A stretch of DNA of 64,000 nucleotides from the human T2T-CHM13v2.0 reference genome, Homo sapiens. This document shows, piece by piece, positions 34,032 through 45,560 of this stretch. Where the stretch lies: assembly GCF_009914755.1 (NCBI RefSeq), contig NC_060926.1. The stretch is one strand, 5' to 3'. The stretch's first letter is position 1; every line of letters starts with the position of its first letter. The notes under the pieces were generated by a model that was not told the origin of the DNA, searched no databases, and saw only the letters and a program-made list of their open reading frames with translations. The position numbers and the translations under genes are program-made.

Positions 34032-34247
34032 ATGGCCGGCGCCCCTCCCCCAGCCTCGTTGCTGCCTTGTAGTTTGATCTCAGACTGCTGTGCTAGCAAT
34101 CAGCGAGACTCCGTGGGCGTAGGACCCTCTGAGCCAGGTGTGGGATATAATCTCATGGTGCGCCGTTTCTTAAGCCGGTCTGAAAAGCGCAATATTCGGG
34201 TGGGAGTGACCCGATTTTCCAGGTGCGTCTGTCACCCCTTTCTTTGA
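34032..34247 (+). CDS. L1 ORF0 (71 aa, intact), on the L1 antisense = TTL sense strand
   Basis: MAGAPPPASLLPCSLISDCC...VTRFSRCVCHPFL-TGA; strong Kozak gcaATGG; splice donors after 34137 and 34222. Confidence 0.88.
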   Translation: MAGAPPPASLLPCSLISDCCASNQRDSVGVGPSEPGVGYNLMVRRFLSRSEKRNIRVGVTRFSRCVCHPFL

Positions 34248-35973
34248 CTCGGAAAGGGAACTCCCTGACCCCTTGCGCTTCCCAGGTGAGGCAATGCCTC
34301 GCCCTGCTTCGGCTCGCGCACGGTGCGCACACACACTGGCCTGCGCCCACTGTCTGGCACTCCCTAGTGAGATGAACCCGGTAAGGTACCTCAGATGGAA
34401 ATGCAGAAATCACCCGTCTTCTGCGTCGCTCACGCTGGGAGCTGTAGACCGGAGCTGTTCCTATTCGGCCATCTTGGCTCCTCCTCCTGGTCTTGAACTC
34501 TTGACTTCAGGTGATCTACCCCCCTCGGCCTCCCAAAGTGCTGGGATTACAGGCGTAAGCCACCATGCCTGGCTAATTTATATTTTCCCTCTATTTTGCT
34601 TGGACAGATTGACTAAACATTTATCAATTTTATCAGTCTTTTCAAAAAATTAGCTTTTGGTTTTATTGGTTTTCTCTGTTGTTTTTCTTTTCAGCTTCTT
34701 TGATTTATGCACTTTATCATTCTCTTCCTTTTGCTTTTTGGAGGATATAATTTACTCTTTTTCTAGTTGTGCTTTTTGTTTGTTTTTTAAGAGATGGTGT
34801 CTCATTTTATTGCCTAGGCTGGAGTACAAGTGTGATCATAGCTCACTGCTGCTTCAAACTTTTAGGCTCAAGGGATCTTCCTGTCTCAGCCTCCCAAGTA
34901 GCTGGGACTACAGGTATACACCACTGTGCCTGGCTAATTTTTTTATTTTTTGTAGAATTGGGTCTCACTGTCTTGCCCAGGCTGGTTTCAAGCTCCTGGG
35001 CTCAAGCAGCCCTCCCATCTTGATCTCCCAGAGTGCTGGGATTATAGGTGTGAGCCACCATGCCCAGCCTATTCCAGTTTTTAAGGTGAAAGTTTAAATA
35101 ATTGATTTGAGATATTTCTTTTTTTTTTTGAGATAGAATTTTGTTCTTATTGCCCAGGCTGGAGTGCAATGGCACGATCTCGGCTCACTGCAACCTCCAT
35201 CTCCTGGGTTCAAGCGATTCTCCTGCCTCAGCCTCCCGTGTAGCTGGGATTACAGGCATGTGCCACCATGCCTGGCTAATTTTGTATTTTTAGGAGACAC
35301 GGGGTTTCTCCATGTTGGTCAGGATGGTTGAGATATTTCTTTTTTAAAAAAATAAAAGCATGTCTCAGTTTCCCTTTATCAGTTTCCCTCTAAATATTGC
35401 ATTAGCAGAATCCCACAGATTTTGCTGTTTTCATTTCCATTTTATTAAAATATTTTCTAATTTCCCTTATAATTTTATCTTTGATTCATGTGATTTAGAA
35501 ATTTTTGTTTAATATCCAGATATTAGGTCAGGAAGAGACTTTGTCTGGTTTCATCTTTAAAAGTTGCTAAGGTTTGTTCCATAGCCCAGAAGGTCTTTTA
35601 ATGTTCTATGTGCACTAACAGAATGTGTACTTGGCTATAATTGGGCAGAGTGTTGTTTTTTATTTTTATGTTTTTTGAGACAAGGTCTTACTTTGTTTCC
35701 CAGGCTGGAATGCAGTGGCACAAACATGGTTTGCTGCAGCCTTAACCTCCTGGGCTCAAGCGTAAGTAGCCTAGGTAGCTGGGACTACAGGTGCATGCCA
35801 CCAAACCCACCTGATTTTTGTATTTTTTTTGTAGAGACAGGGTTTTGCCCTGTTGCCCAAGCTGGTCTCGAACTCTTGGGCTCAAGCAATTCTCCCATCT
35901 TGGCCTCTCAAAGTGCTGGGATTACAGACATGAGCCACTGCACCTGGCCTTATTCTGCTTGTTCTATTTATTA

Positions 35974-43300: not shown

Positions 43301-45560
43301 TTTTTCTTTTCTTTTTTTTTTTTTTGAGACAGAATTTTGCTCTTTCACCCAGGCTGGAGTGAAGTGGCACAGTCTTAGCTCACTGCAACCTCTGCCCCCT
43401 GTGTTCAAGCGATTCTCCTGCCTCAGCGTCTGGAGTAGCTGGGATTATAGGCACCTGCCACTATGCCTGGCTAATTTTTGTAATTTTAGTAGAGATGGGG
43501 TTTTGCCATGTTGGTCAGGCTGCTCTCGAACTCCTGACCTGAGGTTACCCACCCGCCTCGGCCTCCCAAAGTGGTAGGATTATAGGCGTGAGCCACCGCG
43601 CCCGGCTGGCCCCTGTATCTTTTTCCTTCCAAATACACAGCTGTGTAGAAGGACAGTTATCTCTGGTACACCAGAGTCATTGTAGCACATTTTATTTACT
43701 GAGAGAAATATTTTGCCCCAGCATTCAGTTGGGTGAAAAATCAGGGAAGATCTTTATAAAACAGAAATGGCATAGGTTTTCTGGGATAGTTGTAGATAAG
43801 AGGTATTTATTCTTCCTAAATAATAGATATATGGTTATCATAAGGAAATATGATGAAAAATTGTTCATAACAGTAACATTTATTAAAATGCTTCCTAGGT
43901 GCCAGGAGTTATGACAAGTTCCTTATGTAATTATCTCACTGAACAATCACTTGTTCAAGATTTTGGTCTGACCTGAGACCTCATGTACTTGTTCATTGTA
44001 TTTCCAAAATACACTTTCAACTTTTTTATTGTGTCACTAAAATCCTGCCATTTTTCCATTCATTGTTGCTAATAATACTTCTACATTTCAACATTTAGTT
44101 TCAACATGTATAGCTCTTAAATCTTGTAATTAGCAATAATTTGCCATTGGAACTAGAACTAGCGACATCGTGAGGTCAACATGTTTTTTTTTTTTTTTTT
44201 TTTTGCAAATCCTGCCCTTCACCAAAGGGCAGTCCATTCTTTACATGGCAAAAATACATGGAAATGTTTTACGTGTTATAAACAAACATGGCAGCAGCCC
44301 AGCTGTTGGAAGAATCTTCATTTACAGAGGCCACAATGACTCGGCACTCTACTGCTTCTTGAGACATGGGAAAGTGGCTTTTGCCTGGAAGAACACGAGT
44401 GGTTGCAGTTTTCTAACAAATGCTTGATAAGTAACATTCTCTTGAGTAACCTAATGGTAATAAGTTGAAAAGAGAGAATTAGGCCGGGCACGATGGCTCG
44501 CACCTGTAATCCCAGCACTTTGGGAGGCCGAGGTGGGCGGATCACCTGAGGTCGGGAGTTCGAGACCAGCCTGACCAACATGGAGAAACCCTGTTTCTAC
44601 TGAAAATACAAAATTAGCTGGGTGCGGTGGCGCATGCCTGTAATCCCAGCTGCTCGGGAGGCTGAAGCAGGAGAATCTCTTGAACCCAGGAGGCGGAGGT
44701 TGCCATGAGCCAAGATCATGCCATTGCACTCCAGCCTGGGCAACAAGAGCAAAACTCCGTCTCAAAAAAAAAAAAAAAAAAAAGGAAACAGAGAATTAAA
44801 GCTGATAAGCTGATATTTGTATTCATCTCATATAAAATCTTTCAAGCACACCTCATGTCTTCCTTCTCCTTTGACCACCCCGTTCTAATGAGCATTTCCC
44901 CTCCTGCCTCATAGGAACTGCCTCCTGAGCGTGGAGCCTGCCATTAGCACCAAGCACCTCCCTTACCAGAGCTTCCAGCTCTTCGGCTTTGACTTCATGG
45001 TCGATGAGGAGCTGAAGGTGTGGCTCATTGAGGTCAACGGTGCCCCTGCATGTGCTCAGTAAGCCTGCACGTCATTGTGTTTTTACAAGTGGGAAGTTGG
45101 TTCTGCAGTTGGGATAGTCTGTGGGTACAAGTGTAGTCACTTTGACTGCTGTGAGGGAGGATGCCACAGTGATAGGAGACCCTTGGGAGGACTCTATCTG
45201 GCAGGGGGCTTTGCTGAGTCACTTCCTTTCCTATTTCCCCGTGTATAGGCCAGATAGGCCCAGTGTGGTAGCTCATGCTTGTAATCCCAGCACTTTGGGA
45301 GGCCAAGACAGGTAGACTGTCAGGTAGACTGTCTGAGCCCAGGAGTTCAAGACCAGCCTGGGCAGCCTGGCAAAACCCCATCTCTACAAAAAATACAGAA
45401 ATTAGTCAGGCATGGTGCTGTGTGCCTATAGTCCCAGCTGCTCGGGAGGCTGAGGTGGGAGGATCACTTGAGCCTGGGAGGTTGAGGCTGCAGTGAGCCA
45501 TGACTGCACCACTGCATTGCAGCCTGGGCGACAGAGAGACCCTGTCTCAAAAGTAAAAAA
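40307..45560. mobile_element. Alu cluster: + 40307 (TAAA tail), + 41027, - 41880, + 42294, - 42587, - 43295, + 44482, + 45257
   Basis: Alu consensus similarity; exon 6 lies between the last two. Confidence 0.8.
44915..45058 (+). CDS. TTL: TTL exon 6 (144 nt, symmetric phase 2-2)
   Basis: atag| acceptor; [47 protein letters not shown](Q), with the GFD and catalytic ExN motifs; donor CA|gtaagc. Confidence 0.97.

What the first reader, a model, noticed from the sequence alone, without database searches (positions are those of the whole stretch)
34032..45058. L1 antisense promoter + intact ORF0 whose second splice donor is in frame with TTL exon 6: predicted ORF0-TTL fusion protein
Seen: the L1HS is antisense to TTL, so its 5' UTR antisense promoter faces exons 6-7. 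ORF0 (34032-34247) is intact with a strong Kozak. The donor TCCAG|gtgcgt after 34222 falls 191 nt into ORF0 (phase 2). Exon 6 (44915) also starts in phase 2, so the splice recreates the same AG|G Arg codon as the native exon 5-6 junction. Product: ORF0 aa 1-63 + R + TTL 293-377 = 149 aa, ending at the normal stop and so not an NMD target. It keeps the GFD and ExN metal/catalytic motifs but lacks the N-terminal and central domains. The first donor (after 34137) is phase 1, out of frame. Established: the L1 antisense promoter makes chimeric transcripts, and ORF0 can splice into neighbouring exons. Inference: a human-specific, methylation-sensitive truncated TTL isoform could arise in hypomethylated cells; expression is not shown by the sequence.
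Basis: partly seen in the sequence, partly recalled or inferred. Interest (0 to 1): 0.8.

Follow-up and report, generated by a model that had tools for sequence, protein, structure and literature searches.

The report
Predicted, unobserved L1 ORF0–TTL fusion
A young human L1 retrotransposon sitting backwards in an intron of the tubulin tyrosine ligase gene could in principle splice its small antisense gene (ORF0) in frame onto the last two TTL exons, but this is a generic property of such elements, no catalogue I could search reports the transcript, and the product would lack most of the enzyme.

Summary
A 6.0-kb L1HS lies antisense in TTL intron 5. ORF0 is intact at 34032-34247 (71 aa), with G at -3 and +4. 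The donor CAG|GTGCGT after 34222 is 191 nt into ORF0. Joining it to exon 6 (44915) or exon 7 (53316) keeps the TTL frame, giving 149 or 101 aa. The first donor is out of frame.

None of this is special to the locus. All 20 other L1 copies I fetched have the same intact ORF0 and both donors, and frame agreement with one donor is a 1-in-3 chance.

Published tables already list this element as L1HS Ta1-nd, full-length, recorded in euL1db and not on the fixed list. Its promoter is at least 94% methylated in 9 of 12 cell lines, 40% in 2102Ep, 61% in K-562 and 88% in MCF-7. Sense readthrough is near zero except weakly in MCF-7.

TTL is absent from five L1-chimera supplement sets and the full-text library.

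The product would keep only about the last quarter of the TTL domain, so it could not be catalytic.

Verdict: real anatomy, known mechanism, hypothetical isoform.

The parts
28446..34488 (-). Full-length L1HS (Ta1-nd), about 6043 bp including a 21-A tail. ORF1 is intact and ORF2 is interrupted.
   Evidence: similarity to 6 of 6 other copies ends at 34485-34488. Philippe 2016 and Lanciano 2024 supplement rows give the family and status. The ACA trinucleotide seen in the 3' UTR as a Ta marker is recalled knowledge.
33577..34488 (-). L1 5' UTR, a bidirectional promoter
   Evidence: It lies upstream of the ORF1 ATG at 33576. The bidirectional promoter is established knowledge (reviews read).
33890..34095 (+). 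Expected antisense-promoter / antisense start region, L1 nt about 400-600 (inferred, not measured here)
   Evidence: Coordinates converted from Criscione 2016 section 7. This stretch differs at 0-3 of 142 nt from the 20 other copies. There is no ATG on the + strand between 33880 and 34031.
34032..34247 (+). ORF0, 71 codons plus TGA. The ATG A falls at L1 nt 452.
   Evidence: The position agrees with the 'A451G' start-codon change described in Garza 2023. No Pfam family matches.
34135..34143 (+). SD1 donor CAG|GTGTGG, exon end 34137, phase 1
   Evidence: Matches 7 of 9 consensus positions. Present in 20 of 20 other copies.
34155..34157 (+). In-frame internal ATG (ORF0 codon 42), usable if transcription starts downstream of 34032. 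It would give 108 aa via SD2 and exon 6.
   Evidence: the only other + strand ATG in 33880-34222. ATG at this codon in 3 of 20 other copies. The 108 aa is my arithmetic.
34220..34228 (+). SD2 donor CAG|GTGCGT, exon end 34222, phase 2. This is the donor in frame with TTL exons 6 and 7.
   Evidence: Matches 8 of 9 consensus positions. Present in 20 of 20 other copies.
34283..34291 (+). Third donor-like site CAG|GTGAGG, exon end 34285, downstream of the ORF0 stop. Its use would give full-length ORF0 and a stop 182 nt before the last junction.
   Evidence: Present in 5 of 6 other copies.
34380..34384 (+). 5-nt insertion private to this copy. It creates a GTAAGG donor-like site on the + strand.
   Evidence: absent in 6 of 6 other copies; 7 of 9 consensus positions.
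27552..27821 (+). TTL exon 5, ending ...AAG|gtaact in phase 2
   Evidence: Matches Pfam TTL profile positions 122-211 of 292.
44915..45058 (+). TTL exon 6, residues 292(part)-340(part), with D318, E331 and N333. The acceptor has 15 of 16 pyrimidines.
53316..53430 (+). Coding part of TTL exon 7, ending at the native stop

Best explanation
This is an ordinary young L1 insertion: L1HS Ta1-nd, full length, ORF1 open, ORF2 broken. It lies in antisense orientation in TTL intron 5.

Like other L1HS/L1PA2 5' UTRs, it carries the antisense promoter, an intact ORF0 and the two ORF0 splice donors. By a one-in-three coincidence the second donor has the same codon phase as TTL exons 6 and 7. An antisense-promoter RNA that starts upstream of 34032 and splices 34222 to 44915 would therefore encode a 149-aa ORF0-TTL(293-377) chimera.

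In most cells the promoter is densely methylated, probably reinforced by co-transcription with TTL, and the isoform is not made at a level that any searched catalogue recorded.

If made, the protein would be non-catalytic and would not bind tubulin, because it keeps only the last quarter of the ATP-grasp domain.

Shown: the anatomy, frames, family generality, published methylation and sense-expression values, and domain coverage. Inferred: silence of the antisense promoter at this copy and the fate of the product.
For: - Anatomy and frames.
- Generic cassette: 20 of 20 other copies have a 71-aa ORF0 with the same SD1 and SD2. There were 3083 first-look candidates in the genome.
- ORF2 runs in two frames with a switch near 31551-31554 and is closed upstream of 32402. 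ORF1 is open at 338 aa.
- Methylation of this exact locus (Lanciano 2024 supplement file 4): 2102Ep 0.40, K-562 0.61, MCF-7 0.88, HeLa S3 0.945, HEK-293T 0.949, H1 0.96, and 0.97-0.98 in the other six lines. It was detected in 12 of 12 lines.
- Sense readthrough (Philippe 2016 supplement file 5): mean 0.019 FPKM. Above the paper's 0.05 threshold only in 4 of 4 MCF-7 libraries (0.08-0.14) and 1 of 2 HEK-293T libraries.
- Intragenic L1HS in expressed genes become methylated by co-transcription, and 5-aza reactivates only 61 of 379 L1HS loci.
- TTL is absent from the stored supplements of Criscione 2016 (10 files), Pinson 2022 (3), Jonsson 2019 (5) and Honda 2020 (1). It is also absent from all Lanciano files other than the methylation table.
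- Zero papers for 'L1-TTL', and zero for tubulin tyrosine ligase + LINE-1 + antisense promoter.
- RefSeq lists no TTL exon inside the L1 (hub table).
- Exon 6 matches Pfam TTL profile positions 219-261 of 292 and exon 5 matches 122-211. The active site is built by all three domains, R66 is needed for tubulin binding and R202 for the substrate carboxylate (passages of Prota 2013).
Against: - The antisense-promoter stretch is almost identical to other copies (0-3 differences in 142 nt).
- ORF0's ATG is the first ATG for any start between 33882 and 34031.
- SD2 is the better of the two ORF0 donors by consensus (8 of 9 against 7 of 9).
- By a crude pyrimidine rule, exon 6 has the best acceptor for 10.7 kb: only 2 other sites equal it, and none is followed by a strong donor.
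- The locus is partly unmethylated in 2102Ep, K-562 and MCF-7, and shows weak sense-strand activity in MCF-7.
- Absence from catalogues is weak evidence. Several are EST-based or restricted to certain cells. Lanciano file 4 was cut when stored. Denli 2015's list of observed ORF0 fusions, Garza 2023's table S3 and Adami 2025's supplements could not be read.
- No RNA data could be queried here.
Confidence: 0.62

Rival explanations
1. One reading: in hypomethylated cells this copy's antisense promoter fires upstream of the ORF0 ATG. SD2 splices to exon 6 (or 7), and a stable 149-aa (or 101-aa) ORF0-TTL protein is translated. The result would be a human-specific, possibly polymorphic, methylation-sensitive isoform or tumour antigen.
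For: - All sequence prerequisites are met.
- ORF0-exon fusions are an established class: Criscione 2016 quotes Denli 2015 for 57 observed among about 3200 genic ORF0 loci, and reviews describe SD1/SD2.
- The locus is 40% methylated in 2102Ep and 61% in K-562, and weakly active in sense in MCF-7.
- Lanciano 2024 notes that some unmethylated L1HS produce only antisense transcripts.
Against: - No record in any catalogue or text searched.
- The base rate of observed fusions is about 2% of genic ORF0 loci (57 of about 3200).
- Only 16% of L1HS loci are reactivated by demethylation.
- The primary antisense start is reported at about nt 400, downstream of the ATG.
- A fragment holding a quarter of an ATP-grasp domain fused to ORF0 is unlikely to fold stably (inference).
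Confidence: 0.13
2. The antisense promoter of this copy is occasionally active, but its RNAs do not encode the fusion. They may start downstream of 34032. They may use SD1 (out of frame), or the third donor after 34285 (full-length ORF0, then an NMD-prone mRNA), or the private GTAAGG site at 34380. They may also end at intronic poly(A) signals. The outcome is non-coding or short-lived L1-TTL chimeric RNA, or free ORF0.
For: - The primary L1HS antisense start is at about nt 400.
- Alternative donors: SD1 7 of 9, the 34285 site 8 of 9 (present in 5 of 6 other copies), the 34380 site 7 of 9.
- With the 34285 donor, the ORF0 stop lies 182 nt before the exon 6/7 junction.
- There are 22 AATAAA/ATTAAA motifs on the + strand between 34223 and 44914.
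- Criscione 2016 predicted no peptide of 100 aa or more for about 73% of antisense-promoter transcripts.
Against: - EST 5' ends are often truncated, so 'about nt 400' may understate upstream starts.
- This copy has an in-frame ATG at codon 42 (34155), so even a downstream start combined with SD2 would still give an in-frame 108-aa product.
- There is no direct RNA evidence either way.
Confidence: 0.22

Closest known systems
L1 ORF0-host exon fusions (Denli et al. 2015, Cell 163:583). The paper is not held here; it is known to me through Criscione 2016, Hancks & Kazazian 2016 and a 2026 review.
   Same: A primate-specific L1 5' UTR, antisense promoter, 71-aa ORF0 with a strong Kozak context and two internal donors. 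The downstream host exon is on the same strand and in frame.
   Different: Those fusions were defined by observed transcripts and ribosome footprints. Here there is no transcript, footprint or peptide evidence, and TTL is not in any list I could search.
L1 antisense-promoter chimeric transcripts (LCTs) such as L1-MET and L1-BCAS3 (Speek 2001; Cruickshanks & Tufarelli 2009; Criscione 2016; Lanciano 2024)
   Same: An intronic, antisense-oriented young L1 that could act as a methylation-sensitive alternative promoter for the downstream exons of its host gene.
   Different: Known LCTs are supported by ESTs or RNA-seq junctions and usually come from hypomethylated copies. This copy is at least 94% methylated in 9 of 12 lines, and no junction is reported. 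L1-MET is named from recall. L1-BCAS3 is from the Lanciano passages.
Catalytically dead TTL mutants (E331Q) and the tubulin-binding mutant R66E (passages of Prota et al. 2013)
   Same: The predicted product would, like these, be unable to tyrosinate tubulin.
   Different: Those are full-length folded proteins. The predicted chimera lacks residues 1-292 altogether, including the tubulin-binding surface, so it could not even compete for tubulin.

Membership tests
L1 ORF0-host exon fusion locus | L1HS/L1PA2-8 5' UTR with an intact ORF0 (ATG, Kozak context, open frame) | tested here: met
   34032-34247, 71 aa, G at -3 and +4. Same length and design as 20 of 20 other copies.
L1 ORF0-host exon fusion locus | Functional-looking splice donors inside ORF0 (SD1, SD2) | tested here: met
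   CAG|GTGTGG after 34137 and CAG|GTGCGT after 34222. They match 7 of 9 and 8 of 9 consensus positions.
L1 ORF0-host exon fusion locus | Downstream host exon on the same strand whose acceptor phase matches a donor, giving an open fused frame | tested here: met
   SD2 to exon 6 gives 149 aa and SD2 to exon 7 gives 101 aa. SD1 is out of frame.
L1 ORF0-host exon fusion locus | Observed chimeric transcript (EST, RNA-seq or long-read junction) | tested here: inconclusive
   No TTL entry in the stored supplements of five studies, and no paper found. The Denli 2015 list, Garza 2023 table S3 and Adami 2025 supplements were not readable. Raw RNA data cannot be queried here.
L1 ORF0-host exon fusion locus | Evidence of translation (ribosome footprints, peptide) | not testable with these tools
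   No Ribo-seq or proteomics access.
L1HS-Ta (human-specific L1 subfamily) | Subfamily-diagnostic 3' UTR bases and RepeatMasker/ATLAS-seq assignment | tested here: met
   ACA is present in the 3' UTR (that it marks Ta is recalled). Philippe 2016's supplement labels this locus 'L1HS|Ta1-nd|full-length'. Lanciano 2024 labels it L1HS REF.
Retrotransposition-competent L1 | Intact ORF1 and intact ORF2 of about 1275 codons | tested here: not met
   ORF1 is 338 aa and open. ORF2 is split into a 284-codon and a 960-codon open stretch in different frames, and is closed upstream of 32402. The 1275-codon length is recalled.
Active tubulin tyrosine ligase (ATP-grasp, Pfam PF03133), as applied to the predicted product | N-terminal, central and C-terminal domains together forming the ATP/Mg and tubulin-tail site | tested here: not met
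   The product would begin at TTL residue 293. Exon 6 starts at profile position 219 of 292 and exon 5 (positions 122-211) is excluded. R66, R202 and the beta6-beta7 loop are absent, while D318 and E331 are present.

The most novel reading that the evidence does not exclude
This insertion is catalogued in euL1db and is not on the fixed list, so it may be polymorphic. It could act as a methylation-sensitive internal promoter of TTL in embryonal-carcinoma, leukaemia or breast-cancer cells (2102Ep, K-562, MCF-7). The resulting ORF0-TTL(293-377) protein would exist only in carriers of the insertion. ORF0 is reported to be nuclear, so its N-terminus could direct the chimera to the nucleus. The chimera could then serve as a tumour-restricted antigen rather than as an enzyme.
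Probability: 0.08. Interest if true: 0.45.

Novelty: new member of a known kind. Interest (0 to 1): 0.2.

Why it matters
If the junction were found, it would add one more example to the known class of L1 antisense-promoter/ORF0 fusions. This one would involve a microtubule-modifying enzyme. It would also have a natural control: the insertion is listed in euL1db, so people without it may exist. A junction peptide could be of interest as a tumour-specific antigen.

As it stands, the value of the finding is mainly negative. A perfectly in-frame ORF0-exon arrangement is what one expects by chance at about a third of antisense intronic young L1s. It therefore should not be read as evidence of an isoform.

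Tried and rejected

2. Papers not held: Denli 2015, Speek 2001, Macia 2011 and Matlik 2006. ORF0 and antisense-promoter facts therefore come second-hand from Criscione 2016 and from reviews.

3. Adami 2025's supplements were unreadable.

4. A search for a target-site duplication found nothing of 9 nt or more between the flanks. One shared 8-mer lies about 90 nt from each end. About 0.5 such matches are expected by chance (my estimate), so I rejected it.

5. The splice-site scoring was only a crude home-made rule: pyrimidine count and consensus matches. No MaxEnt-type model was available, so 'exon 6 is the best acceptor' is indicative only.

6. I did not fold or search the fused protein, because a joined sequence is not the window's own. 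Domain coverage was assessed exon by exon instead.

7. A dominant-negative role for the fragment was considered and rejected, because the tubulin-binding surface (R66 region) is absent.

8. Two literature searches failed on term format and were rephrased. One Pfam call had a wrong frame and was corrected.
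Full report
**Observation**

I read 33700-34700, 44800-45150 and 27500-27900 and recomputed every number in a script.

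- ORF0: the ATG is at 34032, with G at -3 and G at +4. The frame is open for 71 codons to the TGA at 34245-34247.
- Donors: two GT donors lie inside ORF0. CCAG|GTGTGG follows 34137 (106 nt, phase 1). TCCAG|GTGCGT follows 34222 (191 nt, phase 2).
- TTL frame: the coding parts in the hub's table translate to 377 aa. Exons 1-5 total 875 nt, so exons 6 and 7 both start with two bases of a codon already supplied.
- Native and chimeric junction: exon 5 ends in AG and the SD2 exon ends in AG. Either one followed by the G at 44915 gives an Arg codon.
- Products: SD2 to exon 6 to exon 7 is open for 149 aa to the native stop. SD2 to exon 7 is open for 101 aa. SD1 runs into stops after 39 aa (exon 6) or 48 aa (exon 7).
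- Exon 6 aligns to residues 293-339 of solved TTL chains.

**What the element is**

On the - strand the L1 runs from a 21-A tail ending at 28446 to about 34488. Similarity to six other copies stops at 34485-34488.

- ORF1 is open (338 aa, 32560-33576).
- ORF2 is not intact. It is open in one frame from 32402 to 31551 and in another from 31554 to 28675. The copy is full-length but not competent to retrotranspose.
- The 3' UTR carries ACA. I recall this as the Ta marker.

Two published tables name this very locus:

- Philippe 2016, supplement file 3: hg19 chr2:113261382, - strand, 'L1HS|Ta1-nd|full-length', in a TTL intron. It has a euL1db entry and no entry in the fixed-L1 column.
- Lanciano 2024, supplement file 4: hg38 chr2:112503812-112509845, -, L1HS, REF, full-length, closest gene TTL, detected in 12 of 12 cell lines.

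The element is therefore already catalogued. It is human-specific by subfamily, common, and possibly still polymorphic.

**Is the ORF0 cassette special?**

No. A search of the window's own genome with 33890-34250 gave 3083 first-look candidates. The 40 that were scored were all 98-100% identical over the full 361 nt.

I fetched 20 of them. These were the top-ranked matches, so they are a biased sample. All 20 have a 71-codon ORF0 and the same SD1 and SD2.

This copy differs from at least 18 of the 20 at six positions. It has 14 CpGs in this stretch against 15-18 in the others, which is what CpG decay would produce.

The 142 nt upstream of the ATG differ at only 0-3 positions. The promoter sequence therefore looks as good as that of its relatives.

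With one donor in phase 1 and one in phase 2, a given downstream exon matches SD2 one time in three.

**Features that bear on the outcome**

- ORF0's ATG is the first ATG for any start between 33882 and 34031.
- Criscione 2016 (section 7) places L1HS antisense ESTs within the first 600 bp and the 'primary L1 ASP at ~400 bp'. By my conversion (34488 = nt 1, minus the 5-nt insertion) the ATG is at nt 452. This agrees with Garza 2023's 'A451G' start-codon change. Some antisense RNAs would therefore begin downstream of the ATG.
- In this copy the next ATG (34155, codon 42) is in frame. It is present as ATG in only 3 of 20 other copies. A downstream start combined with SD2 would give 108 aa (my arithmetic).
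- Competing donors exist. CAG|GTGAGG follows 34285, after the ORF0 stop, and is present in 5 of 6 other copies. Its use would leave the stop 182 nt before the last junction. A GTAAGG site at 34380 is created by a private 5-nt insertion that is absent in 6 of 6 other copies.
- By a crude pyrimidine rule the exon 6 acceptor (15 of 16) is equalled by only 2 sites in 34230-44914, and neither is followed by a strong donor.
- There are 22 AATAAA/ATTAAA motifs in the interval.

**Published state of the locus**

Promoter CpG methylation (Lanciano 2024 supplement):

| Cell line | mCG fraction |
|---|---|
| 2102Ep | 0.40 |
| K-562 | 0.61 |
| MCF-7 | 0.88 |
| HeLa S3 | 0.945 |
| HEK-293T | 0.949 |
| H1 | 0.96 |
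| other six lines | 0.97-0.98 |

The main text (passages) reports three relevant points:

- Intragenic L1HS in expressed genes are methylated through co-transcription.
- Some unmethylated L1HS make only antisense RNA.
- 5-aza reactivates only 61 of 379 L1HS loci.

Sense readthrough (Philippe 2016 supplement file 5) averages 0.019 FPKM. It exceeds the paper's 0.05 threshold only in 4 of 4 MCF-7 libraries (0.08-0.14) and in 1 of 2 HEK-293T libraries. In 2102Ep it is 0.04 and 0.008. The locus is therefore nearly, but not wholly, silent.

**Search for the transcript**

'TTL' as a whole word is absent from the stored supplements of:

- Criscione 2016: 10 files covering 988 EST-supported antisense transcripts.
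- Pinson 2022: 3 files.
- Jonsson 2019, DNMT1-knockout neural progenitors: 5 files.
- Honda 2020: 1 file.
- Lanciano 2024: 8 of 9 files. The only hits are the methylation rows in file 4, which was cut when stored.

Full-text searches gave the following results:

- 'L1-TTL': 0 papers.
- Tubulin tyrosine ligase + LINE-1 + antisense promoter: 0 papers.
- No listed paper held TTL together with ORF0, the antisense promoter or L1HS. One paper pairing TTL with 'chimeric transcript' is a study of a sperm-maturation non-coding RNA.

RefSeq shows no TTL exon in the L1 (hub table).

I could not read Denli 2015 or its fusion list, Adami 2025's supplements, Garza 2023's table S3 or the pan-cancer fusion tables. 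No RNA-seq could be queried. Absence is therefore suggestive, not proof.

**The product**

Pfam places exon 5 at TTL profile positions 122-211 and exon 6 at 219-261 of 292. The chimera would therefore keep about the last quarter of the domain.

Passages of Prota 2013 state the following:

- The active site is formed by all three domains.
- Mg is held by Asp318 and Glu331.
- The nucleotide packs against the beta6-beta7 and beta11-alpha5 loops.
- R202 binds the substrate carboxylate.
- R66E abolishes tubulin binding.

The fragment keeps D318, E331 and N333 but loses everything else. It could neither bind tubulin nor bind ATP productively (inference).

ORF0 has no Pfam family. It is described as nuclear, near PML bodies (Honda 2020 introduction citing Denli).

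**Verdict**

- The anatomy is real and exactly as described.
- The mechanism invoked is established for the family.
- The specific isoform is a prediction with a low prior. About 2% of genic ORF0 loci had observed fusions (57 of about 3200), and 16% of L1HS loci are reactivated on demethylation.
- There is no supporting record.
- The product would not be an enzyme.

I rate it a new, unverified member of a known kind, of low interest unless junction reads are found.

Noticed in passing
window 34380-34384: A 5-nt insertion in the L1 5' UTR, at about L1 nt 105, is absent from 6 of 6 other copies compared. It sits in the sense-promoter part of the UTR and creates a GTAAGG donor-like site on the + strand.
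   Followed up: partly
window 34489-34591 and 28380-28445: The L1 5' end abuts a truncated Alu-like segment, while the sequence beyond the poly(A) tail is not Alu. No target-site duplication of 9 nt or more was found. This suggests an atypical integration, such as a target-site deletion.
   Followed up: partly
window 28672-32494 (- strand): ORF2 is interrupted. The open frame changes near 31551-31554 and is closed upstream of 32402. ORF1 (32560-33576) is intact.
   Followed up: yes
window 34283-34291: A third strong donor-like site, CAG|GTGAGG, lies just downstream of the ORF0 stop and is conserved in 5 of 6 other copies. It could compete with SD1 and SD2 and give unfused ORF0.
   Followed up: partly
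window 34155-34157: ORF0 codon 42 is ATG here but in only 3 of 20 other copies. This gives the copy a second in-frame start between SD1 and SD2.
   Followed up: partly
window 33890-34250: This copy has 14 CpGs against 15-18 in 20 other copies. Several of its six near-private substitutions are C-to-T or G-to-A changes, consistent with CpG decay.
   Followed up: partly
window 28296-28445 region (- strand, downstream of the L1): Philippe 2016 records weak L1-sense readthrough here in MCF-7 (0.08-0.14 FPKM in 4 of 4 libraries), although the promoter is 88% methylated in that line.
   Followed up: no
window 33624-33881 (+) and 34294-34653 (+): Two further mechanical ATG ORFs (85 and 119 aa) lie on the + strand over the L1 5' UTR and its flank. 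They were not examined.
   Followed up: no
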